The notes under the pieces are model-generated. The model saw only the letters and a program-made list of their open reading frames with translations. It did not search any database and was not told where the DNA came from. Positions 31,164-49,562 of a stretch of 49,562 bases of DNA are shown here, in pieces. The position numbers and the translations under genes are program-made. Each line of letters begins with the position of its first letter. The stretch's first letter is position 1. Origin of the DNA: Candidatus Sericytochromatia bacterium (GTDB lineage Bacteria > Cyanobacteriota > Sericytochromatia > S15B-MN24 > UBA4093); NCBI GenBank assembly GCA_036676495.1, contig JAKFCT010000007.1, positions 1 through 49,562 on the forward strand. Reading direction: 5' to 3'.

Positions 31164-31303
31164 GCGGACGTCCTTTCGGTGATCGGCTCACGGGGGACGG
31201 GGGCGCGGGCTCCAGGATGCCATGAGAGGGGGCGCGCGGGAGTCGCCGGGATCGCGTTGCGGCTGTGACCTGCCTTACGGCTGCTTGCTCGGCAACACGG
31301 CGA

Positions 31304-31336
31304 AGGGCCCGCCGGAGTCTGACTCCGGCGGGCCCT
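31304..31336 (-). terminator. acnB terminator hairpin
   Basis: AGGGCCCGCCGGAGTC-T-GACTCCGGCGGGCCCT just past the acnB stop. Confidence 0.65.
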
Positions 31337-31351
31337 CGACCGTGGGATGGG

Positions 31352-33946
31352 TTAGACCGAGACGGTCTCGGCCACGTCCCGGAACTCCGGAATCTGATCG
31401 AAGTTCATGTAGCGGTAGATCTCGGAGGCCTTGGCGTTGACGGCCTGGACCTTGTCGAGGTACTCGCTCGGGGTGGGGATCTTGCCCATCAGGGCGCAGA
31501 CGGCCGCGAGCTCCGCCGAGCCGAGGTAGACCCGGGTCTCGATCCCGAGACGGTTCGGGAAGTTGCGGGTCGAGGTCGACATGGCGGTGCTGCCCCGCTT
31601 GATCTGCGCCTGGTTGCCCATGCACAGCGAGCAGCCGGGCATCTCCATGCGGGCGCCGGACTTACCGAGGACGGAGTAGTAGCCTTCCTCGTTGAGGATC
31701 ATGGCGTCCATCTTGGTGGGGGGCGCGATCCAGAGGCGGGTGGGGATGTCGGACTTGCCGTCGAGGACCTTGCCGGCGGCGCGGAAGTGACCGATGTTGG
31801 TCATGCACGAGCCGATGAAGACCTCGTCGATCGTGTCGCCCGCGACGTCCGACAGCAGCTTGACGTCGTCCGGATCGTTGGGGCAGGCGACGATGGGCTC
31901 GGTGATCTCGTTCATGTCGATCTCGATCACGGCGGCGTACTCGGCGTTCTTGTCGGCGCGCAGGAGCTTGGGATCGGCGATCCAGTCCTCCATGGCCTTG
32001 ATGCGGCGGCGCAGGGTGCGCTCCTCTTCGTAGCCGTTGGCGATCATCCACTTCATGAGGGTGATGTTCGAGCGCATGTACTCGATGATGGGCTCGGGGT
32101 TGAGGTCGACCACGCAGGCGGCGGCGGAGCGCTCGGCCGAGGCGTCGGTGAGCTCGAAGGCCTGCTCCACCTTGAGGTCGGGGAGTCCCTCGATCTCGAG
32201 GATGCGGCCCGAGAAGATGTTGAGCTTGCCCTTCTTCTCGACGGTCAGGAGGCCCTGCTTGATGGCGTAGAAGGGGATGGCGTTGACCAGATCCCGCAGG
32301 GTGACGCCGGGCTGCAGCTTGCCCTTGAAGCGGACGAGCACGGACTCGGGCATGTCGAGCGGCATGACGCCGGTGGCGGCGGCGAAGGCGACGAGGCCCG
32401 AGCCGGCCGGGAAGGAGATGCCGATGGGGAAGCGGGTGTGCGAGTCGCCGCCGGTGCCCACGGTGTCAGGCAGCAGCAGGCGGTTCAGCCACGAATGGAT
32501 GACGCCGTCGCCGGGCCGCAGCGAGACGCCGCCGCGGGTGGTGATGAAGTCGGGCAGCTCGCGGTGCATCTTCACGTCCACCAGCTTGGGGTAAGCCGCG
32601 GTGTGGCAGAAGGACTGCATGACCATGTCGGCGGAGAAGCCGAGGCAGGCCAGATCCTTGAGCTCGTCGCGGGTCATGGGGCCGGTGGTGTCCTGCGAGC
32701 CGACGGTGGTCATCTTGGGCTCGCAGTAGGTGCCGGGGCGGACGCCCTGGCCCTCGGGAAGACCGACGGCGCGGCCGACCATCTTCTGCGCCAGGGTGTA
32801 GCCCTTGCCGGAATCCGAGGGGATCTGCGGCAGGCGGAAGAGGGTGGAGGGCGCCAGGCCAAGCGCCTCGCGGGCCTTGGCGGTGAGGCCGCGGCCGATG
32901 ATCAGCGAGATGCGGCCGCCGGCGCGAACCTCGTCGAGGATCACGGGCGTCTTGAGCTGGGACTCGGCAATGACTTTGCCGTTCTTAAGGGCGGTGACCT
33001 TGGCGGTCGCGTGATCGACGCGCAGCTCGATCGATTCGCCCATGTCCATCTGCGAGACGTCGAGCTCGATGGGCAGTGCGCCGGCATCTTCCATGGTGTT
33101 GAAGAAGATGGGAGCGATCTTGCCGCCGAGGCAGACGCCGCCGAAGCGCTTGTTGGGCACGAAGGGGACGTCCTCGCCGGTGAACCAAAGCACCGAGTTG
33201 GTGGCGGACTTGCGGCTGCTGCCGGTGCCGACCACGTCGCCGACGTAGGCCACGAGGTGGCCCTTGGCCTTCAGGTCTTCGAGGAACTTGACGGGGCCGC
33301 GGACGCCAGCCTCTTCGGGCTCGATGCCCGGCCGGGGGTTCTTGAGCATGGCCAGCGCGTGCAGCGGGATGTCAGGGCGCGACCAGGCATCAGGAGCGGG
33401 CGAGAGGTCGTCGGTGTTGGTCTCGCCGGTGACCTTGAAGACGGTCAGGACCTGCGACGCGGGGACCTCGGGGCGCGAGGTGAACCACTCGGCGTCGGCC
33501 CAGGACTGCATCACGGCCTTGGCATGGGGGTTGCCCTTGTCGGCCAGCTCCTTGACGTCGTGGAAGTAGTCGAAGACCAGCAGGGTCTTCTTCAGGGCTT
33601 CCGCGGCGGTTTCGCCGTGGGGGCCTTCGAGGGCCTCGATCAGCGGTACGACGTTGAAGCCGCCCAGCATGGTGCCCAGCAGCTCGATGGCCTTCTCGCG
33701 GGAGATCAGCTTGCAGGTGACGTCGCCGGCGGCAAGGGCGGCCAGGAAGGAGGCCTTGACCTTGGCGGCATCGTCGACACCCGCGGGAACGCGGTAGGTC
33801 AGAAGCTCGACGAGGAAGTTCTCCTCGCCGGCGGGCGGATTCTGGAGCAGCTCGACCAGCGCGCTGGTCTGCTGAGCGGTCAGGGGCAGCGGGGGAATTC
33901 CCAGTGCGGCACGTTCGGCGACGTGCTGACGGTAAGCTTCGAGCAT
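31352..33946 (-). CDS. acnB: Aconitate hydratase B / 2-methylisocitrate dehydratase
   Basis: [69 protein letters not shown]. Confidence 0.97.
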
Positions 33947-34118
33947 GTAGCGTCCTCTCGACGTTTTGGGGTTGAGACGAGGTTGGTGACTTCCTCTCCG
34001 ACGCGGGAGACGGGTCACGTCTTCTCTATTATAGGCCTTTTCACCGTCTTCCGCGCGCTCTCCCCCTCTTTCGCTCGGGGAGGCTCTTCCCGTATCATGG
34101 GTCAGAGCCGTCATTTTT

Positions 34119-34154
34119 AGCCTTCAGGCCGCAATGGTGAGCCTTCAGGCCGCA
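34119..34154. repeat. 15-bp direct repeat with 21-bp period upstream of nagA
   Basis: AGCCTTCAGGCCGCA at 34119-34133 and 34140-34154. Confidence 0.75.
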
Positions 34155-39583: not shown

Positions 39584-41092
39584 CTAGATCCCCTCGAAGA
39601 GGTATGCGCGCAGCGCCGCCATGTCCGTGCTGGTCAGCGGATAAGGAGGCATCTCGGTATCCGGCAGGTAATCCTGGGGGTGCTGGATCCAGCGGTCGGC
39701 CCAGGGCACCTGGAGGCGATCCGGGGTGTGCCCGAGGTCCGGTGCGAAGCGCCGCGACGCGCTAAGGTCGAGGCCCTTCGGGACCGGGCTCAGGATCGGC
39801 GCGTTGGCGCCCTTGACCTGGTGGCACCATCCGCAGTTCAGCTCCGTGAAGAGCTTCCGGCCCGCCGCCACCTGCTCCTTGGTCCCCCCGACGGTGACCT
39901 CGGCAGGCTGGGGGTAATTCTGCTCGGCGATCCCCTGGAAGTAAGCCAGCAAGGACTCGATCTCGGTGGGCTTCAACGGGAAGCTGGGCATGCGCCCCGG
40001 GTGATCCGGCCGCAGCTCGCGGGGACCGGCCAGGAAGTGCGAGAGCCAACCCTCCCTCACGCGCAGTCCCTCGATGTCCAGGACCGGAGCGAACTTCTCC
40101 CCGCGGCCCTCGATGACGTGGCATCCCCGGCAATTGTACTTGTTGACGATCCGGCGCCCCTCCGCGAGCACGCGGTCCTCGGGCCTCTGGGCCATGGAGT
40201 CCCGGGTCTTGGCGGCCTTCATCGACGGAAGTGCCAGCAGGGCCAGGGCAATCCGGGTGTCCTCCTCGAGCTCCCAGCCATACGTCATGGTCGCGGTGAG
40301 CCGCGGGTGAAGCACGGCGTTGAGATCGCCCTGTCCCGCCAGGACCGACGCGAGCCCCTTGCGAAGCTCGGGTGAAATGGTCTCGATTGCGCGCTTGGGA
40401 GGCGTGCTCAGGCCCGGCATCGTATGGCAGCTGGTGCAGGTCTTCGTCTCGGCGAGCAAGCGGCCCTTTGCCTTGGAGCCGCCCTGGAAGGGAACGTCGT
40501 TGGGAAGGACCGTCCTGTCCAGCAGATAAGCCGTCATGTCCTGGGTTTCGGCTTCCGTCAGGCGGAAGCTCGGCATGACGATGCCCGAATGGTAGTCCTG
40601 CGGCTTCGCGAGGTAGGTGCTCAGCCAGTCCGGACGCACCTTGTGACCCAGGTTGGTGAGGTCGGGAGAGAAATCTCCGCCGTAGTGGCAAGCCAGACAT
40701 TCAAGGGTCTCAAAGAGCTTCTTCCCCTTGGCTGTGTCGCCGATCTTGACGGGTTGTGCGGGGGGAGGGTCTCCCAGCACGAAGGCCGCCAGGTCCTGGA
40801 TCTCCTGGGGAGCCAGGGCGATGCGCGGCATGTTGAGGGAGGTTTCGAGCGCCTCGGGGCTGTGCAGATAGCTCGTGAGCCAGTCGGGCTTCAGCTTGCG
40901 GTTGACGAGCGTCAGGCTGGGAGAGGTTCGGTAGTGCGGATCGGTGCCCGGAATGGTGTGGCAGGCGATGCACTGCTTCTGCTCCATCGCCCGGAAACCG
41001 GGCGTATCCTCGCTGCCGGCTTCGGCTCGGGTGAGGGTGACCCCCAGTAGGCCAGCCAGACCCAGCATGATGCCGATAAACGCTCGCTTCAT
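39584..41092 (-). CDS. Exported pentaheme c-type cytochrome built from tandem class I-like domains
   Basis: Signal peptide; CIACH, CLACH, CTSCH, CRGCH, CGWCH; repeated P.L...W...P...MP pattern; RBS GGAGG. Confidence 0.87.
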   Translation of the reverse strand: MKRAFIGIMLGLAGLLGVTLTRAEAGSEDTPGFRAMEQKQCIACHTIPGTDPHYRTSPSLTLVNRKLKPDWLTSYLHSPEALETSLNMPRIALAPQEIQDLAAFVLGDPPPAQPVKIGDTAKGKKLFETLECLACHYGGDFSPDLTNLGHKVRPDWLSTYLAKPQDYHSGIVMPSFRLTEAETQDMTAYLLDRTVLPNDVPFQGGSKAKGRLLAETKTCTSCHTMPGLSTPPKRAIETISPELRKGLASVLAGQGDLNAVLHPRLTATMTYGWELEEDTRIALALLALPSMKAAKTRDSMAQRPEDRVLAEGRRIVNKYNCRGCHVIEGRGEKFAPVLDIEGLRVREGWLSHFLAGPRELRPDHPGRMPSFPLKPTEIESLLAYFQGIAEQNYPQPAEVTVGGTKEQVAAGRKLFTELNCGWCHQVKGANAPILSPVPKGLDLSASRRFAPDLGHTPDRLQVPWADRWIQHPQDYLPDTEMPPYPLTSTDMAALRAYLFEGI

Positions 41093-41254
41093 TTCATTCC
41101 TCCAGAGGTCGATAGGGCCTCGGCCCCCCATTCCCGTATACCCGGTCTGCTCTTGCTCGGTTGCTGCCGGAAGGTTACAGAGTGTTTCCGCATCTTCGGC
41201 CGAACGCTCGCTCGCGTGCAAAACGAAGCCTCGTTGGGCATAAGATCAGGAATC

Positions 41255-43327
41255 ATGCTGCGCCGACTCACGCTCCTCGCTATGTTAGTGATGCTGCCTC
41301 GCCCGGCCCTGGCTGCCGAGGCGATGGATGGCGAGCAGCTGGATCTCGAGGCGCTGCTCAGCCCTCAGGTCGAGGTCGCCACCAAGCGCCGCCAGGCCCT
41401 GAGCGAAGCCCCCGCCGTCATCGAGGTCCTCACCGCCGAGGACATGCGCGTGCGCGGCTACCAGTCGGTCGCCGAGGCCCTGCGTGCCGTTCCCGGCTTC
41501 TACGTGGCCGACGACCACTTCCTCCCCAGCGTCGGCGTGCGCGGCATTCCCAGCGGCCAGCGGGCCTGGAGCCGGATCGTCAAGGTGATGATCGACGGCA
41601 ACCCCGTTTCCTTCCGCCCTGACGCCTCCAACTTCCTCGGCCCCGAGCTGATTCCCGTCGAGCTGATCAAGCGGATCGAGATCGTGCGCGGCCCCGGCTC
41701 GGCGCTGTACGGCGCGGACGCCTTCCTCGGCGTCATCAACGTCGTCACCCTCTCGGGAGAGGACCTCGCCGGCCGCCACCTGACCACCCAGGCCGGCAAC
41801 TTCGGCCGGAACCCCCAGGCCCTCGCCTCGCTGGCACTCGGTGAACCCCTCCCCTGGGGCAACGCCGAACTGGCACTGGGTGGCATGATGGGCGTCACCG
41901 AGCGCTCGGGAATGGGCCTCGCCGCCACCAGCCCCGCCATCAGCACGCTATCGAGCCTGCAGACGGCCAACGATCGCTCGCTGCCCCGGACCCTCTTCGG
42001 GCGCCTGGGACGCCTGGGGACCCCCGTCGGAGAAGTCTCGCTCGACGGCGGCTACCAGCGCGTGGACGCCTCCGGCGAGTTCCAGGACTGGCGCCCCTTC
42101 ACCCACCAGAGCCGACTGGGCCTGGAGAACCGCTTCGGCCGCGCCACCCTGCGCGGTGGACTCGGCGAGGCCGTCGACACCACCCTCAGCATGGGCTACG
42201 CCCAGGGCAACCCCACCCCCGAGGACCGCCTCGGCATCGGCCGCGACGATTACCTGATCCGCCGCGACATGGCCTCCGAGGCCTGGGACGCCGCCGCCGA
42301 GGCCATGGTCAGCCTGAACGCCCGCGACAGCCTCACGCTTGGCGCCGACTGGTCCCAGACCGACCACCAGCTGCCCACCTACTACGACGTCTTCACCCCC
42401 GCCAGCCCCCGCGCCGGCACGGAGATCCAGGACGGACCCGCCGGGATCTCCCGGCACTTCACCAACCTGGGGCTCTACAGTCAGGGAATCGTCCACCTCG
42501 GCCAATCTCTGGGTGTCACGCTGGGTTTGAGAAGCGATAGCCACTCGATTTACGGCAATGTGCTGAATTCGAGGCTCGGCCTCGTCTCGCCTCTGGCCGA
42601 GGGCGTGACCGGAAAGATCCTCTACGGCACCTCCTTCAAGGCGCCGTCACCCCAGCAGCTCTTCGGGCGCCCCCTGGTCTTTGGAGACATCATCGGGAAC
42701 GAGGCCCTCAGGCCCGAGCGCGCCCAGACCGTCGAGGCCGCGGTCAACTATCAGCCCGTCCACGGCTGGGATCTGGTGGCCAGCACCTACTACACCCACG
42801 TGACCGACAAGGTTGGCTTCGTCACCCAGCGCGGCAACCCCAAGGCCATCAACCAGAACCAGCTCGACTCCGTGGGCGTCGAGGGCGGCCTCAAGTGGAC
42901 GCATCGCGGCCTCTTCGGCATGCTCAACCTCTCGGCCCAGCAGACCGTCTCGCAGGCCCTGGCCCTCGACGAGATCTCGGACTCCGAGGGCCTCGCCGAG
43001 GCTTATCCCGCCCTCATGGCCAACGCGGGCCTGGGAGTGCCGCTGGGAGACTTCACGGCCTACCTCGAGGCGCGCCACGTAGGCGGGGTGCCCGCCACCC
43101 AGTCGAACTTCGCCAATAACGGGCATGTGGCCTACACCCTACCGGCTGCCACGATCTGCGACCTGACCCTGTCGAGCCGGGAGTGGTCGCTGGCCCAGGG
43201 ATCGCTGCGGGGCAGCCTGAAACTTTACAATCTCTTCGACGCGCCGTCGGCCACTCCGGGCTTCGGGGGAGTCGACTACCCGGGCCCGGGACGCATGGTT
43301 CTCTTGAGGATGCAGTATGGCTGGTAG
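41255..43327 (+). CDS. TonB-dependent receptor
   Basis: Signal peptide; plug motifs LEALL..V..ATK....EAPA, RAVPG, IKRIEIVRGPGSALYG..A..GVINVV; barrel KAPS..L, LRPE, NLFD; C-terminal YGW. Confidence 0.9.
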   Translation: MLRRLTLLAMLVMLPRPALAAEAMDGEQLDLEALLSPQVEVATKRRQALSEAPAVIEVLTAEDMRVRGYQSVAEALRAVPGFYVADDHFLPSVGVRGIPSGQRAWSRIVKVMIDGNPVSFRPDASNFLGPELIPVELIKRIEIVRGPGSALYGADAFLGVINVVTLSGEDLAGRHLTTQAGNFGRNPQALASLALGEPLPWGNAELALGGMMGVTERSGMGLAATSPAISTLSSLQTANDRSLPRTLFGRLGRLGTPVGEVSLDGGYQRVDASGEFQDWRPFTHQSRLGLENRFGRATLRGGLGEAVDTTLSMGYAQGNPTPEDRLGIGRDDYLIRRDMASEAWDAAAEAMVSLNARDSLTLGADWSQTDHQLPTYYDVFTPASPRAGTEIQDGPAGISRHFTNLGLYSQGIVHLGQSLGVTLGLRSDSHSIYGNVLNSRLGLVSPLAEGVTGKILYGTSFKAPSPQQLFGRPLVFGDIIGNEALRPERAQTVEAAVNYQPVHGWDLVASTYYTHVTDKVGFVTQRGNPKAINQNQLDSVGVEGGLKWTHRGLFGMLNLSAQQTVSQALALDEISDSEGLAEAYPALMANAGLGVPLGDFTAYLEARHVGGVPATQSNFANNGHVAYTLPAATICDLTLSSREWSLAQGSLRGSLKLYNLFDAPSATPGFGGVDYPGPGRMVLLRMQYGW

Positions 43328-44555
43328 AACGCTTCTGGGACTGCTCGCGCTGACACTCGCCGGTTGCGCGCTGCTGCCGACGACGAGCGCACAGCGCACC
43401 GACACCCTGCGCATCGGAGCCCTGGCGCCGGCCTCCGGCACGAACGCCGAGAAGGGCGATTCGGTCTACAACGGCGTCCGGCTGGCCGTGGCACAGGCCA
43501 ACGCGGCGGGCGGCATCCTGGGCAAGCGCGTGGAGTTGGTCACGGGCGATGACCAGTCGAGCAAGACCGTCGCGCCCAACGTGGCGGCCAACCTGATCGC
43601 CAAGGGCGTGCTGGGCATCGTCGGCAACGTGCAGAGCAGCCTCACGCAGGAGGTCCTCCTGAAGCAGACCCAGCCCAACGGCGTGGTGCTGATCTCTCCG
43701 GCCTCGACCTCTCCGATCTTCAGCGACCCGACGCAAATCGACCACGGCGGCTGGTTCTTCCGGACGATCGCCAACGACGCCCTCCAGGGCAAGGCGCTCT
43801 CGGCCAAGGCCAGAGCGCTCGGCTACCAGAAGCTGGCCGTCCTCTACGTCAACAACACCTACGGTACGGGCCTGGCCTCGGTGCTAAAGCGGGACTTCGA
43901 GGGTGCGGGGCACGCCGCGACGCTGATCCCCTACCCCGAGACCAGCCAGCCGCTTCCCTCCTACGCCGATATCCTCGCTCCCGCCCTGGCCCAGTCGCCG
44001 GACGCCGTCGTGCTGATCGGCTACCCCGGCGAGGGCTCGGTCATCCTGCGGGACTGGATCGTGGGCGGACAGCTGCCAGGACTCAAGTGGCTCTTCAGCG
44101 AGGCGCTGAGGGCCGAGTCATTCGTGGACAACGTCAGCGACAAGACGCGCCTCGAAGGATCCGTGGGCACGGCGCCTCACCTCGAAGGAGCCGCCTACGA
44201 GCGCTTCGCGCAGGCTTACCGCTCGCGCTTCGGCGAGGCGCCCTCTCTCTACGCGGCCAACGCCTACGACGCCGCCATGCTGATGTTCCTGGCCCTCGAA
44301 AGGGGCAAGGAGGCGTCTCGCATTGCACTCAAGGAGAACCTGCATGCGGTCTCGGACGGCTCCGGAGAGGCGGTTCATGCCGGCGAGCTGGAGAAGGCCC
44401 TGGAGGTGGTTCGCGCCGACCGGAAGATCAACTACGAGGGGGCCTCGGGGCCGGTGGACTTCGACGAGCGTGGGGACATCAAGTCCGGGACGTACGTGGT
44501 CTGGCAGATTCGCGACGGCAAGATCGTCAACACGCCCGAAACCTTGACCCCGTGA
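43317..44555 (+). CDS. Branched-chain amino-acid-type (PBP1) substrate-binding lipoprotein; no permease genes nearby
   Basis: Lipobox LAGC; IGAL.P.SG, NAAGGILG, DDQS, SPASTS, FFRT..D..QG, YDAA, YEGASG..DFD..GD; overlaps the TBDR stop. Confidence 0.9.
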   Translation: MAGRTLLGLLALTLAGCALLPTTSAQRTDTLRIGALAPASGTNAEKGDSVYNGVRLAVAQANAAGGILGKRVELVTGDDQSSKTVAPNVAANLIAKGVLGIVGNVQSSLTQEVLLKQTQPNGVVLISPASTSPIFSDPTQIDHGGWFFRTIANDALQGKALSAKARALGYQKLAVLYVNNTYGTGLASVLKRDFEGAGHAATLIPYPETSQPLPSYADILAPALAQSPDAVVLIGYPGEGSVILRDWIVGGQLPGLKWLFSEALRAESFVDNVSDKTRLEGSVGTAPHLEGAAYERFAQAYRSRFGEAPSLYAANAYDAAMLMFLALERGKEASRIALKENLHAVSDGSGEAVHAGELEKALEVVRADRKINYEGASGPVDFDERGDIKSGTYVVWQIRDGKIVNTPETLTP

Positions 44556-44574
44556 GGATGACATGATTCGCCGG

Positions 44575-44583
44575 TGGTATAAT
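44575..44583 (+). promoter_or_regulatory. Extended -10 promoter upstream of the PP2C gene
   Basis: TGgTATAAT about 45 bp upstream of the ATG at 44628. Confidence 0.55.
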
Positions 44584-44627
44584 CCCCTTGCAACCAGCTG
44601 TTTGCAAGGGGGCCAGAGGGGGGAGCC

Positions 44628-46964
44628 ATGAGCCGCCAGCCATTCGGGGACGACATCCGGCGGACCCTGCTGATCTTCTTCACGGTCTTCGCGGTGCTGC
44701 CGGTGCTGGTGGCGATCGCCTTCATGACCCGCACCGCCGACCAGGCCATCTCGCGGACCGCCGAGCAGCTGACGCAGGTGGGCTCGCAGACCCTGCGCGA
44801 GTCCGCGGGCAAGGTCGCCTCCACTGGCCAGGAGCGCCTGGACCGCTCCGGCGAGGCCCTGCAGCGGATCGCCCGGAAGTCGCTGGAGGACACCTCCGGC
44901 ACGCTCATCTCCACCAGCCGCGACAAGCTCTCGGGCGCCAGCAGTCAGCTCATCGCCCAGGGCTCCGAGACCAACCGCCAGCTCAGCGAGCGCCTCATCG
45001 CCCTCAGCCAGGCCGAGTCCACCCAGCTGAGCGCCCAGCTGATCGCCGATAGCCAGGCGGCCAACGCCGAGCTGGGCAAGACCAACGAGAAACTCGCCGA
45101 GCGCGCCCTGGTCGAGACCACGGACCAGCTCGTCGCGCGCACGCAGGTGCTGACCAACGCCATCAGCGACCACCTGATCGGCCTGAACCAGAAGTCGGCC
45201 CGTGAGCTCTCGGATGCCATCCTGGCGGACGTCGAGAAGGAGCCGGTGGTCAACTTCAAGACGCTGGCGACCATCTTCGCGCAGGGCATCGCCGGCGGCA
45301 AGGTGCTGCCGATCCAGGAAGGCTACCTGGCGGTGGTGGACGGCCGCGGCCGGGTCCTCGCCAGCACCAAGCACCGCAAGGGCGCCTCGTTGCGCCACCT
45401 CGACGTCGTCTCCAAGGCCCTGGACGCCGGCTCTCCCAATGACGAGCTGATCGTCTTCCAGGATGGCAAAGAGACCTACCTGGGCGTCTTCGCCCGGCGC
45501 GAGGAGGGCGGAGCCGTGGTCTTCGCCTACCTGGCCGACAAGGCACGGATGGACACGGAGCGGATGAAGGCCGACGTCCAGGGGGCGATCGCCGCCATGG
45601 GCCAGACCTCCTCGGGCTACGTGCGCGAGGCGCTGGCCTCGAACGTCCCGGCCATCCGCCGGGAGGCCACGGCGCTCTCCGAGAAGGCGATCGCCGAGAT
45701 CACGGCGGAAAGCCGCGCGTCCACCGAGCGCACCGCCAAGCAGATGGGCGAGCGTGCAGAAGCCACCGTGGCCCGGGCACGCGAGCGCATGGCCGCCCAG
45801 AGCGAGTCCATCGCGGTTTCCAGCCTGTCGCGGATGGAGGAGCGGTCGCGGGAGATCTCCTCGCGGGCGATCGCCGAGATGGAGCCCATCGCCCAGCAGT
45901 CCGTGGCGAGCGCGATCGTGGCGATGCAGCAGCAGGCCGAGCGCTCGGTCGACGAGACGGCCGCCGAGCTCAAGAGTGAGGTCGAGGCCTCGGGTGCCAG
46001 GGCCGTCGAGCGCATGCCGCCCGCAGCCGAGCGGATCGCCCATGAGGCGCGCATGCAGTCCCTGATGATCGCGGTGATTTTGCTGGTGCTCGAGGTCGGC
46101 CTCGCCTTGCTCTTGAGCATGGTGCTGTCTGGCCGGATCGCCGCTCCCATCCTGACCGAGCGCCAGAAGTCACGCGAGGAGCAGGAGCGCCTGAAGCGCG
46201 AGCTGGAAATTGCCAGCCAGATTCAGCTCTCGATGCTGCCCCAGGCTCCGCCGGTCATCCCTGGCGTCGACATCGCCTTCTACTTCCAGCCGGTCGACGA
46301 GGTCGGCGGGGACTATTACGATCTCATCCGGGTGGGCAACCAGCTGGCGATCGCTGTCGGCGACGTCAACGGCCATGGCCTGGGCGCCGCCCTGCTGATG
46401 GCCATGGCCAAGAGCGCCTTCCACACGCAGGCGGGCCGGGACCCCGACGTCTCGGCCGTCATGACCGGCCTCAACGAGATGGTCTTCGGAGCCACCCAGG
46501 AAAGGCGCTTCATGACCTTCTTCTACGCCCTGATCGACCTCGACACCCGCCGGATGGTCTACTCCAACGCCGGCCACCACTACCCCTACCAGCTGGAGTC
46601 CACGTTGGGCCGGCTCACCTCCCTGCAACCCTCGGCCTACCCGCTGGGCGTGCGCCAGAACACCAAGTTCCCGGTGCGTACGGCCACCATCTCCGAGGGG
46701 GACCTGCTGGTATTCTACTCGGACGGCATCATCGAGGCGCGCAACCCCGAGGGCGAGGAGTTCGGCTTCGAGCGCTTCGAGCAGGCCATCTGGCTGCACC
46801 AGAAGCACTCTGCCGACACGATCAAGACCTCGATCCTGGCGGAACTGTCGGCCTTCCAGCAGGGGATCCGGCAGGACGACGACATCACCCTGGTGGTGGT
46901 GCAGTTCAACCCCGAGATCCAGAAGGCGGTCCCGGCCGTGCCGGCTGCCCAGGTGACGGCGTAG
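44628..46964 (+). CDS. Membrane-bound SpoIIE/RsbU-like PP2C phosphatase with a very long periplasmic helical region and a Cache-like domain
   Basis: TM1 (aa 14-33) and TM2 (~aa 479-500); ELEIA..IQ..LP, VGGDYYD, GDVNGHG..AAL, NAGH, YSDGIIE, DDIT; central YLAVVDGRGRVLA PAS/Cache-like fold. Confidence 0.9.
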   Translation: MSRQPFGDDIRRTLLIFFTVFAVLPVLVAIAFMTRTADQAISRTAEQLTQVGSQTLRESAGKVASTGQERLDRSGEALQRIARKSLEDTSGTLISTSRDKLSGASSQLIAQGSETNRQLSERLIALSQAESTQLSAQLIADSQAANAELGKTNEKLAERALVETTDQLVARTQVLTNAISDHLIGLNQKSARELSDAILADVEKEPVVNFKTLATIFAQGIAGGKVLPIQEGYLAVVDGRGRVLASTKHRKGASLRHLDVVSKALDAGSPNDELIVFQDGKETYLGVFARREEGGAVVFAYLADKARMDTERMKADVQGAIAAMGQTSSGYVREALASNVPAIRREATALSEKAIAEITAESRASTERTAKQMGERAEATVARARERMAAQSESIAVSSLSRMEERSREISSRAIAEMEPIAQQSVASAIVAMQQQAERSVDETAAELKSEVEASGARAVERMPPAAERIAHEARMQSLMIAVILLVLEVGLALLLSMVLSGRIAAPILTERQKSREEQERLKRELEIASQIQLSMLPQAPPVIPGVDIAFYFQPVDEVGGDYYDLIRVGNQLAIAVGDVNGHGLGAALLMAMAKSAFHTQAGRDPDVSAVMTGLNEMVFGATQERRFMTFFYALIDLDTRRMVYSNAGHHYPYQLESTLGRLTSLQPSAYPLGVRQNTKFPVRTATISEGDLLVFYSDGIIEARNPEGEEFGFERFEQAIWLHQKHSADTIKTSILAELSAFQQGIRQDDDITLVVVQFNPEIQKAVPAVPAAQVTA

Positions 46965-48600
46965 CAGGAGCGCCGGCCCGTGCGGGCGTCGAGATGGGCA
47001 GGAAGACCGTGAAGGTGCTTCCGCGACCCGGGTGGCTGACCAGGGCCACCCGGCCGCCGTGGAGTTCGGTCAGCTTCTTGACCATGCTGAGCCCGAGGCC
47101 AAGTCCCCCTTTTCGCTGGGAATCTCCGATCTCCAGCTGGGTGAAGGCCTGCCAGATTCGTCCGAACTCTGACTCGGGGATCCCGGGTCCCGTGTCCCAG
47201 ACGTCGATGCGGACCTCCTCACCGGACGGCCCGATCCGGATGCCGACCTGGCCTCCGGCGGGAGTGAACTTCTCGGCATTCTCCACGAGCTTGAGGAGCA
47301 CCTGGGAGATCCGGCGGAAATCGCCGGTGATGGCGGGAGTCGCGGGATCGAGGTCGAGCGTCAGCGCCAGCCCATGCGCGCGCATCCCGGCCGCCACGAA
47401 CTGGACGACGTGCCGTGCGACCTCCTCAAGGCTGATCTCGCTCGGGTAGAGCGGAAGCGTCCTGCTGAGGACGGCGCTGTACTCGAGCAAGTTGGTGATG
47501 TGCTCGTTCAGCCTCTGGGTTCCTTCCAGCATCCCCTTCAGCAACTCATCGTCGGGATACTATTCCTCCAAAAGCTCCGCGTACCCGCAGATGAGCGAGA
47601 GTGGGGTCTTGATCTCATGGGAGAGTGTGGAGAGGAAGTGGTCCTTGAGCTGGTTGAGTTCCTTGGCTTTTTGGAGTTCGGCCGTGCGGCGGGCCATCTC
47701 GGTCTGCACGCGGCGGAACTCGGTGAGGTCCCTCACGATGGCCGTCAGGCTCAGGATACGCCCCTGGTCGTCGCGGACGGCGAAGAGGCTAATCCAGACG
47801 TCGAGACGTCGGCCGTCCTTGGCGACTCTCACGCTTTCGAAGGGCTCGAGCGCCTCTCCGCTCAGAATCCGCTTGAGATTCTGACGCGTTTCCTCCAGGC
47901 GGTCGGGCGGCACCACGAAGCCGAAAGGATTGCCGATGGCTTCTTCCGCGGAGTAGCCGAAGAGCCGCTCGGCGCCGGGGTTCCAATACTGGATGGTCAG
48001 ATTATGGGGGTTTATGCTGACGATGGCGTCGAGGGAGGCCGTGACGATGGCCGCCAGTCGCCTCCGGCTCGCGTCCTCGCGAAACTGCTCGGTGATGTCG
48101 TTGAGGATGGCGATGATGCCGCGGGGCGTCCCGTTCGGGGACCAGAAGGGAAAGCGTACCGCGGAGAAGACGTGCTCCTTGCCGTCGGCCGCCACCAAGT
48201 GCTCCTCGAACTTCTGCGGGCCATTCGATTGGAGGACGACGCGATCGTGGGCTAGAACGCACTCGGCGGCTTCCGCGCCGAGGATCTCGCGATCGGTTTT
48301 GCCGATGAGGTCGCTCGGGTGCGAACCCAGCAGCGCGGCTCCAGCCGGGCTGATGGCCTGAATGCGGCCGTCGAGATCCTTGATGATGATGGTGTCCACG
48401 GTGCTTGTCAGGGCGCTATGCAGCAGGGCCTCGGAGGCTTCCAGGGGATGGAAGTCGGTTTCCAGCAAGGCGCGGGCGAGCGGGCGGCGGGATAGGGCTG
48501 CGACCCAGATGAGGCCGAGGCCCGCGGCAAGGAGCATGCCGCTCAGCAAGCTGCCGATCAGCTCGGGGCGGTGCGATCGGGTTTCCAAGTGCTCGCCCAT
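46906..48600 (-). pseudogene. PAS-PAS sensor histidine kinase interrupted by a single in-frame TAG
   Basis: One frame across both ORFs: ..LSHEIKTPL..AELLEE*YPDDELLKGML..; TAG at 47562-47560; downstream HATPase has N box (LVENAEKFT), DTGPGI and GLGLGL. Confidence 0.8.

Positions 48601-48774: not shown

Positions 48775-49562
<788 letters not shown>

What the first reader, a model, noticed from the sequence alone, without database searches (positions are those of the whole stretch)
44757..46046. Sensor phosphatase with a pentadecad coiled-coil 'periscope' that could span the periplasm
Seen: after TM1, aa 44-203 read as ~10.5 uninterrupted 15-residue repeats (TAEQLTQVGSQTLRE / SAGKVASTGQERLDR / SGEALQRIARKSLED / TSGTLISTSRDKLSG / ASSQLIAQGSETNRQ / LSERLIALSQAESTQ / LSAQLIADSQAANAE ...), with small residues at positions 2 and 9 and mostly Leu at 5. 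A Cache/PAS-like domain follows (aa ~204-305). Then come 11 more 15-residue repeats (aa 309-473: AIAEITAESRASTER / TAKQMGERAEATVAR / ARERMAAQSESIAVS / SLSRMEERSREISSR / AIAEMEPIAQQSVAS ...), mostly Met/Ile at position 5, running into TM2 and a PP2C domain with no HAMP. Known: 15/4 periodicity gives right-handed coiled coils, and ~160 residues at 1.5 A each is ~24 nm, similar to periplasm width. Inference: the equal-length outgoing and returning helices form an antiparallel stalk that lifts the sensor through the peptidoglycan towards the outer membrane. It could act as a ligand relay or as a ruler/mechanosensor of envelope width. I do not recognise this architecture from characterised sensors.
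Basis: partly seen in the sequence, partly recalled or inferred. Interest (0 to 1): 0.85.

Follow-up and report, generated by a model that had tools for sequence, protein, structure and literature searches.

The report
Cache sensor phosphatase on long stalk
A membrane protein phosphatase from an uncultured relative of cyanobacteria seems to hold its small sensor domain about 25 nm out from the inner membrane, on a very regular two-helix stalk not described for bacterial sensors in the papers searched.

Summary
ORF 44628-46964(+) encodes a 778-aa protein: TM1, a 171-aa helix, a ~105-aa Cache-fold domain, a 169-aa helix, TM2, a 39-aa helical linker without HAMP, then a PP2C/SpoIIE phosphatase. 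Both helices show a 3.75-residue (15/4) hydrophobic periodicity. Its phase stays constant over each whole arm, and heptad power is near zero.

Across 28 relatives the arms are the most divergent part in sequence (35-38% identity) but hardly vary in length: 171 in 26/26 complete records; 169 in 24/28, 168 in 4/28. One natural short paralogue lacks the Cache domain plus about 75 residues from each arm. It leaves a 92 + 94-residue hairpin joined by a Gly-Pro turn.

An in-register antiparallel stalk (~25 nm if straight) with a distal Cache domain is therefore well supported. That it spans the periplasm or acts as a ruler is untested. The main hint is gene linkage: a TonB-dependent receptor gene lies nearby in 7/13 loci and a lipoprotein binding-protein gene in 6/13.

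The family is tiny and was found only in Sericytochromatia-type genomes. The window's own copy carries a swapped-in PP2C domain. I found no published precedent.

The parts
41153..43327 (+). TonB-dependent receptor gene (plug + barrel, no N-terminal signalling domain detected). It is the first gene of the likely operon; the real start is probably the Met at aa 35.
   Evidence: Pfam Plug E 8e-20 and TonB_dep_Rec_b-barrel E 4e-27, no other family at E<=0.1. Homologues at 35-51% identity lie next to the sensor gene in 7 of 13 loci.
43317..44555 (+). LivJ/K-type periplasmic binding protein with a lipoprotein signal (LAGC, +2 Ala). It overlaps the receptor gene by 11 nt. No ABC permease or ATPase gene was found among the ORFs scanned between 31265 and 41221.
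   Evidence: Peripla_BP_6 E 4e-39. PDB relatives are Leu/Ile/Val-binding proteins. Lipobox present in 7 of 7 homologues read. Neighbours scanned.
44628..46964 (+). Sensor phosphatase gene (778 aa, P0001)
44664..44726 (+). TM1 (aa 13-33). The N-terminus is cytoplasmic; homologues have Lys/Arg-rich N-terminal tails.
   Evidence: Direct reading of the sequence; alignment
44727..45239 (+). Arm 1 (aa 34-204, 171 residues): outgoing helix of about 11 pentadecads. Core positions are 1, 2, 5, 6, 9, 12 and 13 in the register starting at aa 44.
45240..45554 (+). Single Cache/PDC-fold domain (aa 205-309), the best conserved extracytoplasmic part (58% mean identity)
45555..46061 (+). Arm 2 (aa 310-478, 169 residues): returning helix of about 11 pentadecads, Ala-rich with Met at the large core position. 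Conserved prolines lie near aa 340, 420 and 465.
46062..46130 (+). TM2 (aa 479-501)
   Evidence: Direct reading; AF2 helix 464-500
46131..46247 (+). 39-residue helical linker, no HAMP. It contains the apparent recombination point (about aa 521-540, nt 46188-46247). Beyond that point the window's protein follows a different PP2C lineage.
46248..46907 (+). PP2C/SpoIIE phosphatase domain (aa 541-760). It is 66% identical to a HAMP-containing paralogue of the same genome (G000:C8) and only 7-44% identical per 20-residue window to the rest of the family.

Best explanation
The gene encodes a two-pass inner-membrane PP2C phosphatase.

Structure. Its 445-residue extracytoplasmic part is an in-register antiparallel helical hairpin: a 171-residue arm out and a 169-residue arm back. 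Both arms are built from uninterrupted 15-residue (15/4) repeats. A single Cache/PDC-type domain sits at the distal tip. If the arms are straight helices (1.5 A per residue, established value), the tip lies about 25 nm from the inner membrane. The broad seams of small and large residues suggest that two hairpins pack into a four-helix bundle (inferred).

Mechanism (inferred). Binding of a small ligand or of a partner protein at the Cache tip is passed down the paired helices by a register or rotation change. It crosses the membrane through TM2 and a continuous 39-residue helix and switches the phosphatase.

Likely input. This is probably connected with the co-located TonB-dependent receptor and lipoprotein binding protein, which have no ABC transporter of their own next to them.

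Output. The output substrate is unknown. In 6 of 13 loci a GGDEF/HD-GYP gene lies directly upstream, which points to c-di-GMP control in those relatives.

Status of the steps. Domain order, periodicity, length invariance, Cache fold and synteny are shown. The pairing register is supported by several indirect lines. Oligomer state, straightness, handedness, ligand and signalling mode are inferred.
For: Periodicity and continuity:
- 3.75 periodicity beyond all shuffles in both arms.
- The peak lies at 3.74-3.76 in 15 of 15 relatives for arm 1 and 13 of 15 for arm 2.
- Constant phase in 10 of 10 windows per arm, so there are no stutters and no loop-like breaks.
- No family-wide conserved Gly or Pro in arm 1.

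Length:
- Arm 1 is 171 aa in 26 of 26 complete records. Arm 2 is 169 in 24 of 28 and 168 in 4 of 28.
- The arms have 0 and 1 gapped alignment columns, against 35 in the PP2C domain. Yet they are the least conserved part in sequence (0.38 and 0.35 mean identity, against 0.58 for Cache and 0.57 for PP2C).
- Eight further loci that cover the sensor fully span 1428 or 1437 nt. The 9-nt difference is a Cache-loop insertion.
- Coiled coils that diverge in sequence but keep their length are read as spacers (PMC5082667, passages read).

Short paralogue G023:C469 (543 aa):
- It aligns to P0001 aa 7 to about 130 and aa 385 to the end.
- Its 190 extracytoplasmic residues are split 92 + 94 by the only Gly-Pro, in 'EHGP'.
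- It is sister to a full-length paralogue of the same genome (SH-aLRT 99) inside the family clade. A matched loss is therefore the most economical reading.

Register: the ends give i+j = 512 (34+478) and 514 (204+310), and the short-form junction gives 513. Registers with i+j = 5 mod 15 bring the most core-to-core pairs together (67 at 515) and show large-on-small complementarity (r = -0.37 to -0.51).

Models:
- AF2 draws helices 10-204 and 310-444.
- The arm part of the model aligns only to antiparallel coiled-coil arms: cohesin elbow, Smc5/6, Rad50, PrgA (Z 8.9-10.7).
- Residues 207-307 match CitA, DcuS and DctB at Z 10-11, rmsd 2.6-2.8 A. The top 17 rows for the separate domain model are Cache/PDC-type extracellular sensor domains.

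Phosphatase: SpoIIE E 1.3e-48. D562, D579, D699, D751 and D752 are invariant in 14 sequences.

Synteny: a receptor homologue lies nearby in 7 of 13 loci and a binding-protein homologue in 6 of 13.
Against: - The full-length AF2 model is of low confidence (mean pLDDT 56.9, pTM 0.27; arms 39-70). No coordinates could be inspected.
- The coiled-coil structure matches have rmsd 11-79 A and Z below the roughly 13 that the tool says long helices reach by common arrangement alone.
- AF2 breaks arm 2 at 445-463, and conserved prolines near 340, 420 and 465 could kink it.
- Across-sequence covariation between proposed partner positions is nil (|r| <= 0.12). The periodic pattern fixes the register only modulo 15.
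- The matched truncation is a single sequence from one metagenome-assembled genome, with no second example in 5.8 billion clusters. Its arm 1 has lost the clean 3.75 peak.
- Pfam and Foldseek do not reach significance for Cache: no Pfam hit, best Foldseek E 1.3e-3.
- No receptor or binding-protein homologue lies near the gene in 6 of 13 loci, some on short contigs.
- No STAS partner is in the window; the own genome's 4 STAS matches are on other contigs.
Confidence: 0.55

Rival explanations
1. The hairpin exists but is not an extended perpendicular stalk. It folds back at an elbow, or lies along the membrane or within the peptidoglycan, so the Cache domain sits much closer to the inner membrane. 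The length then serves something other than reach, for example signal gain or partner scaffolding.
For: - The best coiled-coil match of the AF2 model is the folded elbow of cohesin (7ogt_A: Z 10.7, 249 residues aligned).
- AF2 breaks arm 2 at 445-463 and confidence there is below 50.
- Conserved prolines lie in arm 2.
- Nothing measures orientation.
Against: - The phase of the seam never shifts along either arm, which a conserved elbow usually requires.
- Arm 1 has no conserved helix breaker.
- The arm-2 prolines recur at one outward repeat position (P is 22% at position 1). They are 30, 45 or 15 residues apart, so they keep register.
- The cohesin match has rmsd 11 A.
Confidence: 0.2
2. The stalk is chiefly a ruler or mechanosensor of envelope width. 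The tip abuts the outer membrane or peptidoglycan, and compression or stretching of the envelope, rather than a chemical ligand, changes helix register and phosphatase activity.
For: - Strict length conservation with free sequence drift is what is described for spacer coiled coils (PMC5082667, passages).
- Envelope signalling can depend on the inner-to-outer-membrane distance (PMC5736177, passages).
- The organism has SLH-type outer-membrane proteins with a coiled-coil tether.
Against: - The Cache domain is the best conserved extracytoplasmic part, with many invariant residues. That fits specific binding better than a passive bumper.
- The short paralogue works with half the stalk in the same genome as two full-length copies, so one fixed envelope width cannot explain both.
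- No envelope-biogenesis genes are conserved next to it.
Confidence: 0.1
3. The periodic arms are not a coiled coil at all. They would be amphipathic or low-complexity helices that bind lipid or polysaccharide or are partly disordered, and the equal lengths are a historical accident of duplication.
For: - pLDDT in the arms is only 39-70.
- The arms are rich in Ala, Ser, Gln and Glu.
- No solved homologue exists for the arms (one search finds only PP2C relatives).
Against: - The seams are made of alternating small (Ala/Ser/Gly) and large (Leu/Ile/Met) residues, not broad hydrophobic faces flanked by Lys.
- There is zero length variation over about 340 residues at 15-38% identity.
- The truncation is matched in both arms.
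- No DNA-level repeats are present.
Confidence: 0.05

Closest known systems
CitA / DcuS / DctB-type PDC (single Cache) periplasmic sensor domains of histidine kinases
   Same: The fold of aa 207-307 (Z 10-11, rmsd 2.6-2.8 A over 95-99 residues). The domain is inserted between TM1 and TM2, entered by an N-terminal helix and left by a C-terminal helix.
   Different: Those domains sit directly on the membrane (recalled). Here about 170 helical residues are interposed on each side. The output is PP2C, not a kinase. Pfam Cache models do not detect it.
Membrane PP2C phosphatases with periplasmic sensor domains: Chlamydia trachomatis RsbU (6mab) and Pseudomonas aeruginosa SiaA (6k4e)
   Same: A two-TM phosphatase with an extracytoplasmic sensor. 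The RsbU periplasmic domain matches the Cache model at Z 7.2. The SiaA PP2C matches at Z 10.1, and NCBIfam SiaA hits at E 8e-15, far below its cut-off. A link to a diguanylate cyclase gene in 6 of 13 loci recalls SiaA-SiaD (recalled).
   Different: Neither has a stalk. SiaA has a HAMP (recalled); this protein has none. The substrates known for those proteins are not encoded nearby.
Cytoplasmic signalling domain of methyl-accepting chemotaxis proteins
   Same: A long antiparallel hairpin whose two arms stay equal and change length by matched insertions or deletions; it dimerises into a four-helix bundle and carries signals over about 20 nm (recalled: Alexander and Zhulin 2007, not read here).
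   Different: Heptad-based, cytoplasmic, with the tip binding CheA/CheW. Here the repeat is 15/4, the hairpin is extracytoplasmic and the tip carries a Cache domain. No sequence similarity was found.
SMC / Rad50 / MukB arms and Enterococcus PrgA
   Same: An intramolecular antiparallel coiled coil with a globular domain at the far end. These are the only structural matches to the arm region (Z 8.9-10.7).
   Different: Unrelated functions and cellular locations. The matches have very high rmsd (11-79 A) and are not evidence of homology.
Pentadecad (15/4) right-handed coiled coils, e.g. stalks of trimeric autotransporter adhesins such as YadA
   Same: A 15-residue repeat with 3.75 periodicity.
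   Different: Those are parallel trimers on the cell surface (recalled; the papers were seen only as a search listing). Here two antiparallel arms of one chain lie in the periplasm, and handedness is untested.
Trans-envelope signalling and spacer systems: FecA-FecR, RcsF-IgaA, Lpp, Omp-alpha, SlpA
   Same: A protein element whose length matches an envelope distance, or an inner-membrane regulator that reads an outer-membrane transporter (PMC5736177, PMC5082667 and PMC9388160, passages read; FecA-FecR recalled).
   Different: The TonB-dependent receptor here lacks the N-terminal signalling domain of transducers: no Pfam STN hit. The regulator is a PP2C phosphatase with a Cache tip, not an anti-sigma factor. 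No contact has been shown.

Membership tests
PP2C / SpoIIE phosphatase (PF07228) | Match to the family profile above the curated cut-off | tested here: met
   166 bits against a cut-off of 25, E 1.3e-48, aa 571-760. PDB sequence relatives: Rv1364c RsbU domain E 6e-18, plus RssB, SiaA and SpoIIE.
PP2C / SpoIIE phosphatase (PF07228) | Conserved acidic metal-binding residues (their role is recalled, not tested) | tested here: met
   D562, D579, D699, D751 and D752 are invariant in 14 aligned sequences.
Cache superfamily (single Cache / PDC fold) | PAS-like alpha/beta fold in an extracytoplasmic position between two TM helices | tested here: met
   CitA 1p0z Z 11.1 (rmsd 2.8 A, 97 residues); DcuS 3by8 Z 10.8. 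Domain-only model: 9hvj dCache Z 10.2, with the top 17 rows all Cache/PDC-type extracellular sensor domains. Topology from direct reading.
Cache superfamily (single Cache / PDC fold) | Match to a Pfam Cache profile | tested here: not met
   No Cache family at E<=0.1. Best Foldseek E 1.3e-3. Atlas feature scores 0.89-0.91 to Cache clusters are only a lead. I therefore file it as Cache-fold, not as a member of a named Cache family.
15/4 (pentadecad) coiled coil | Hydrophobic periodicity of 3.75 sustained in phase | tested here: met
15/4 (pentadecad) coiled coil | Knobs-into-holes packing and right-handed supercoil | not testable with these tools
   No coordinates of a confident model were available; needs a structure.
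HAMP-linked transmembrane receptors | HAMP domain after TM2 | tested here: not met
   No HAMP hit at E<=0.1. Only 39 residues, one helix, lie between TM2 and PP2C. The paralogue that shares the PP2C domain does have a HAMP (E 5.5e-6).
Hairpin receptors with matched arm indels (MCP-like logic) | Length changes occur symmetrically in both arms | tested here: met
   There is one case only. The short paralogue lacks 75-79 residues of arm 1 and 75 of arm 2, leaving 92 + 94. All other relatives show no arm indel beyond a single residue.
TonB-dependent transducer / FecR-type trans-envelope signalling | N-terminal signalling (STN) domain on the receptor | tested here: not met
   Only Plug and barrel were found at E<=0.1. 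About 25 residues lie between the signal peptide and the plug.

The most novel reading that the evidence does not exclude
The stalk is a true periplasm-crossing probe. It would carry the Cache domain through the peptidoglycan to the inner face of the outer membrane. There it would read the state of an outer-membrane-tethered lipoprotein binding protein, loaded by the adjacent TonB-dependent receptor. Nutrient arrival at the outer membrane would then be reported straight to a cytoplasmic PP2C phosphatase through about 25 nm of right-handed coiled coil. That would be a third kind of trans-envelope signalling, beside FecA-FecR and RcsF-IgaA, built from a portable input module.

The module looks portable for two reasons. 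A matched half-length version without Cache exists. In the window's own copy it has been recombined onto a foreign PP2C domain.
Probability: 0.22. Interest if true: 0.85.

Novelty: new variant of a known kind. Interest (0 to 1): 0.68.

Why it matters
Extracytoplasmic Cache/PDC sensor domains, as I recall them, sit on the membrane surface. A sensor that holds its binding domain about 25 nm away on a strictly length-conserved stalk would show that bacteria can sample the outer part of the periplasm directly from an inner-membrane enzyme.

It would also give structural biology a rare natural example: a long, perfectly regular antiparallel 15/4 coiled coil of two arms, about 11 repeats each, without a single stutter.

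It would be a clean system for asking how a binding signal travels along tens of nanometres of coiled coil. The natural half-length paralogue and the natural output-domain swap already mark where the module can be cut.

Finally, the conserved link to a TonB-dependent receptor and an orphan lipoprotein binding protein suggests a new way of coupling outer-membrane import to cytoplasmic signalling in the non-photosynthetic sister lineage of cyanobacteria.

Tried and rejected
Homodimer prediction. I sent the ectodomain (aa 30-505, two copies, alignment A3) to complex prediction. Scores were 0.41, 0.37 and 0.46 against a mark of 0.42, and controls scored 0.00. The tool's verdict is 'no answer', so I draw nothing from it either way.

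Conservation cross-correlation between arm 1 and reversed arm 2. It only reproduced the 15-residue period, for antiparallel and parallel pairings alike, so it is uninformative on orientation.

Across-sequence volume covariation at proposed partner positions. No signal (|r| <= 0.12 at every register), using 23 of the 28 sequences. I dropped 2 N-truncated records and 3 with the one-residue deletion.

Pfam and NCBIfam gave nothing for the arms or the Cache domain.

Foldseek with the domain model gave no match at E <= 0.001.

ESM Atlas gave Cache clusters at 0.89-0.91 only. It holds no structure for this protein and showed no long-stalk look-alike.

Search for other arm lengths or other output domains:
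- Single-sequence search of 1.84 billion representatives: 6 hits.
- Word-indexed searches: 14 and 27 hits, all the same architecture.
- Search with the short paralogue: only itself.
- Genome-collection scan: 11 loci. One, in Phenylobacterium, is a chance match in an alternative frame of another gene.
- Metagenome scan: 4 loci.
Both collection scans used Cache-motif patterns, so Cache-less forms like the short paralogue could not be found that way.

Own-genome scan for other 3.75-periodic proteins. With 120-residue windows the sensor was only 6th of 8210 ORFs and many top ORFs were antisense frames. With 165-residue windows it was 2nd, behind an antisense frame of an unrelated Lys/Glu/Ala-rich protein on C14.

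Partner search. STAS_2 proteins (4 matches) and SpoIIE phosphatases (9 matches) of the own genome lie on other contigs. The closest GGDEF/HD-GYP relative in the own genome is only 37% identical and lies elsewhere.

The context of the short paralogue is different: a CotH-like lipoprotein and an unassigned exported protein, with no receptor or binding-protein homologue.

The promoter/terminator scan of 40900-47700 found nothing above shuffles.

Literature. Searches found no description of a Cache or PP2C sensor on a long periplasmic coiled coil or of pentadecad repeats in a sensor. Two searches looked for envelope dimensions of this lineage and found none.


Full report
THE GENE
The finding's coordinates (44757-46046) are aa 44-473 of ORF 44628-46964(+), a 778-aa protein kept as P0001. 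Pfam recognises only a C-terminal SpoIIE/PP2C domain (aa 571-760, E 1.3e-48). At E<=0.1 it finds nothing in the first 570 residues: no HAMP and no Cache. NCBIfam gives only weak PP2C-level hits. Reading the sequence shows two hydrophobic segments, aa 13-33 and 479-501. Homologues have Lys/Arg-rich N-terminal tails. So the N-terminus and the PP2C domain are cytoplasmic and aa 34-478 are extracytoplasmic.

THE REPEATS ARE REAL
The hydrophobicity spectrum of each arm peaks at 3.75 residues. Powers are 144 and 152. The per-shuffle maxima of 300 shuffles averaged about 49 (sd 12) and never exceeded 121 and 104. Self-similarity at lags 15, 30 and 45 gives z = 3.9-7.8, with 0 of 500 shuffles reaching it; the PP2C domain used as control shows none.

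The same peak (3.74-3.76) is present in 15 of 15 relatives for arm 1 and 13 of 15 for arm 2. The other two have a one-residue deletion and peak at 3.71. Power at the heptad value of 3.5 is 0-7 throughout.

The phase of the wave does not move along either arm: 55-69 degrees in 10 of 10 windows of arm 1, and 172 to -161 degrees in 10 of 10 windows of arm 2. Each arm therefore carries one uninterrupted seam over about 170 residues, without stutters.

The seam alternates small and large residues:
- Arm 1: Ser/Ala/Gly at positions 2, 9 and 12; Leu/Ile/Val at 5, 6 and 13.
- Arm 2: Ala/Ser at 3, 7 and 10; Met at 14.

There is no DNA repeat of period 45. The periodicity is thus a protein-level constraint and not a recent duplication. 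In the organism's own genome this is the only one of 8210 ORFs of 200 aa or more with two such 165-residue stretches.

THE MIDDLE DOMAIN
AF2 on the 14-sequence alignment gave a poor overall model (pLDDT 56.9, pTM 0.27). It shows one helix for 10-204, an alpha/beta domain for 205-309 (pLDDT 72-86) and one helix for 310-444.

Residues 207-307 superpose on the periplasmic domains of CitA, DcuS and DctB and on many dCache chemoreceptor domains at Z 10-11, rmsd 2.6-2.8 A, over 95-99 residues. A separate model of aa 192-322 (pLDDT 70) gave Z up to 10.2. Its top 17 rows are all Cache/PDC-type extracellular sensor domains, and the periplasmic domain of Chlamydia RsbU appears at Z 7.2.

Foldseek alone stayed just short of significance (best E 1.3e-3). 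Atlas feature look-alikes are Cache clusters at about 0.9. I call it a Cache/PDC-fold domain that no current profile recognises.

A TINY FAMILY WITH FROZEN ARM LENGTHS
The family is very small:
- The word-indexed search found 13 relatives.
- The exhaustive search of 1.84 billion representatives found 6.
- A profile of the Cache domain searched against longer proteins found 27, all of the same architecture.
- Among genomes, 11 of 47 of the same class have it and 0 of 14 from other classes of the phylum.
- A scan of 185,579 species genomes found 10 real loci. All are in assemblies labelled Sericytochromatia, 'Cyanobacteria bacterium' or filamentous cyanobacteria. One further match was a chance hit in a wrong frame.
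- A metagenome scan found 4 more loci.

In an alignment of 28 proteins, arm 1 has 171 residues in all 26 records that contain it whole. Arm 2 has 169 in 24 and 168 in 4. The arms show 0 and 1 gapped columns, against 35 in the PP2C domain. Yet they are the most divergent parts in sequence: mean identity 0.38 and 0.35 (minimum 0.15), against 0.58 for Cache and 0.57 for PP2C.

Length conserved while sequence drifts is the signature that a review of coiled coils assigns to molecular spacers (PMC5082667, passages read).

THE NATURAL EXPERIMENT
The profile search of the class turned up a third paralogue in genome G023 (contig C469). One 543-aa frame matches the start of arm 1 and, two codons later, the end of arm 2.

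Against the family HMM it aligns to P0001 aa 7 to about 130 and aa 385 to the end; the two alignment envelopes overlap by five residues. It therefore lacks 75-79 residues of arm 1, the whole Cache domain and 75 residues of arm 2. That is five repeats from each arm.

Independently of any alignment, its 190 extracytoplasmic residues are divided 92 + 94 by its only Gly-Pro, in 'EHGP'.

On a tree of the TM2-to-PP2C region it is sister to a full-length paralogue of the same genome (SH-aLRT 99), inside the family clade (SH-aLRT 100). A deletion from a full-length ancestor is the simplest history. If a deletion spanning the Cache domain ended at random in each arm, equal remainders within one or two residues would be expected in only a few per cent of cases (my estimate).

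It is a single sequence, though, with no second example in the database, and its arm 1 has a degraded periodicity.

THE PAIRING REGISTER
The pairing register implied by this junction is i+j = 513. The register given by the membrane ends is 34+478 = 512, and by the Cache junctions 204+310 = 514. Registers equal to 5 modulo 15, which include 515, bring the most core positions face to face (67 pairs at 515). They pair large with small side chains (r = -0.37 to -0.51).

Together with the topology, this supports an in-register antiparallel hairpin. At 1.5 A per residue it would be about 25 nm long.

The arm part of the AF2 model aligns only to antiparallel coiled-coil arms (cohesin elbow, Smc5/6, Rad50, PrgA; Z 8.9-10.7). 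The rmsd is very large, and the scores are below what the tool says long helices reach by common arrangement. I count that as weak.

WHAT IS NOT SHOWN
- Straightness, orientation, handedness, oligomer state and reach to the outer membrane are all untested.
- AF2 breaks arm 2 at 445-463, and conserved prolines lie near 340, 420 and 465. They recur at one repeat position, which fits kinks in a continuing helix rather than loops.
- No envelope dimensions for this uncultured lineage were found.
- The organism is a diderm with a cyanobacterial-type envelope. It has TonB-dependent receptors and SLH-domain outer-membrane proteins with a coiled-coil tether of roughly 50 residues by my reading. This tether type is described for deep-branching diderms (PMC9388160, passages).

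GENE CONTEXT
In the window the sensor gene follows a TonB-dependent receptor gene and, overlapping it by 11 nt, a LivJ/K-type binding-protein gene. No ABC permease or ATPase was found among the ten ORFs I scanned (nine between 31265 and 41221, one at 48775-49560), and the next gene upstream is a divergent multihaem cytochrome c.

Homologues of this same receptor (35-51% identity) lie near the sensor gene in 7 of 13 loci examined. Homologues of the binding protein (33-54%) lie near it in 6 of 13, in varying order and orientation. Several of the negative loci are short contigs.

All 7 binding-protein homologues read have a lipobox, with a +2 residue that is never Asp. By the E. coli sorting rule (recalled) that would send them to the outer membrane. 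Whether that rule holds here is unknown.

The receptor has no N-terminal signalling domain. In 6 of 13 loci a GGDEF/HD-GYP gene lies directly upstream of the sensor gene. No STAS-type partner is in the window.

AN UNEXPECTED TWIST IN THE WINDOW'S OWN COPY
On the tree, the PP2C domain of P0001 groups not with the family but with another phosphatase of the same genome.

P0001 aa 509-760 is 66% identical (168 of 253, E 4e-126) to that 543-aa protein on contig C8. The C8 protein has a short periplasmic domain and a HAMP.

Sliding identity crosses over at about aa 521-540. Before that point P0001 follows the family (0.49-0.57, against 0.25-0.45 to C8). After it, P0001 follows C8 (0.55-0.95 up to aa 730, against 0.07-0.44 to the family).

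The stalk-sensor, TM2 and linker helix thus behave as a portable input module that has been recombined onto a different catalytic domain. At 66% identity this is evolutionary and not an assembly artefact.

VERDICT
The structural half of the interpretation, an equal-armed antiparallel pentadecad stalk with a distal Cache domain and no HAMP, is well supported by independent sequence-level evidence. The functional half (periplasm-spanning relay, ruler or mechanosensor) remains a hypothesis. The receptor and lipoprotein synteny makes it more attractive but does not test it.

All parts are known kinds; the arrangement is not described in the papers I could search. I rate it a new variant of a known kind and of fairly high interest.

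Noticed in passing
window 46906-48600 (-), stop at 47560-47562: A PAS-PAS-HisKA-HATPase histidine kinase gene convergent with the sensor gene is interrupted by a single in-frame TAG ('...AELLEE*YPDDELL...'). Both halves are otherwise intact and in one frame. It could be a nonsense mutation, an assembly error or read-through.
   Followed up: partly
window 46188-46907 (aa 521-760 of P0001) and L049:3453-5087 (-) = G000:C8: The window's PP2C domain is 66% identical to a HAMP-containing paralogue elsewhere in the genome and unlike the rest of the stalk-sensor family. This is a natural output-domain swap at the linker/PP2C boundary.
   Followed up: yes
L046:1081-2712 (+) = G023:C469: A 543-aa paralogue has half-length arms (92 + 94 residues), a Gly-Pro turn and no Cache domain. 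It is a singleton in the databases. It lies downstream of a CotH-like lipoprotein gene and an unassigned exported-protein gene.
   Followed up: yes
L017:5733-7427, L019, L020, L021, L022, L023: A GGDEF + HD-GYP (HD_5) gene lies immediately upstream of the sensor gene in 6 of 13 loci, a few bases apart in L005/L021. This suggests a link to c-di-GMP turnover. The window's own locus lacks it.
   Followed up: partly
L023/L041/L044 = G010:C209 8093-9059: The homologue in this genome is split between two frames near the contig end (matches to query residues 2-240 and 266-345). It may be a frameshift or an assembly problem.
   Followed up: no
window 31265-34120 (+) and 31352-34114 (-): Two overlapping ORFs of more than 900 aa lie on opposite strands. 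The + strand product has no Pfam family at E<=0.001. Which one is real was not settled.
   Followed up: no
window 39584-41221 (-): A multihaem cytochrome c gene (Cytochrom_C, CBB3-type and CXXCH motifs) is divergent from the receptor/binding-protein/sensor genes.
   Followed up: no
L014:9310-11880 (-) = G002:C117: Two tandem paralogous lipoprotein binding-protein genes precede the receptor and sensor genes in this same-genus genome, so the module can carry more than one binding protein.
   Followed up: no
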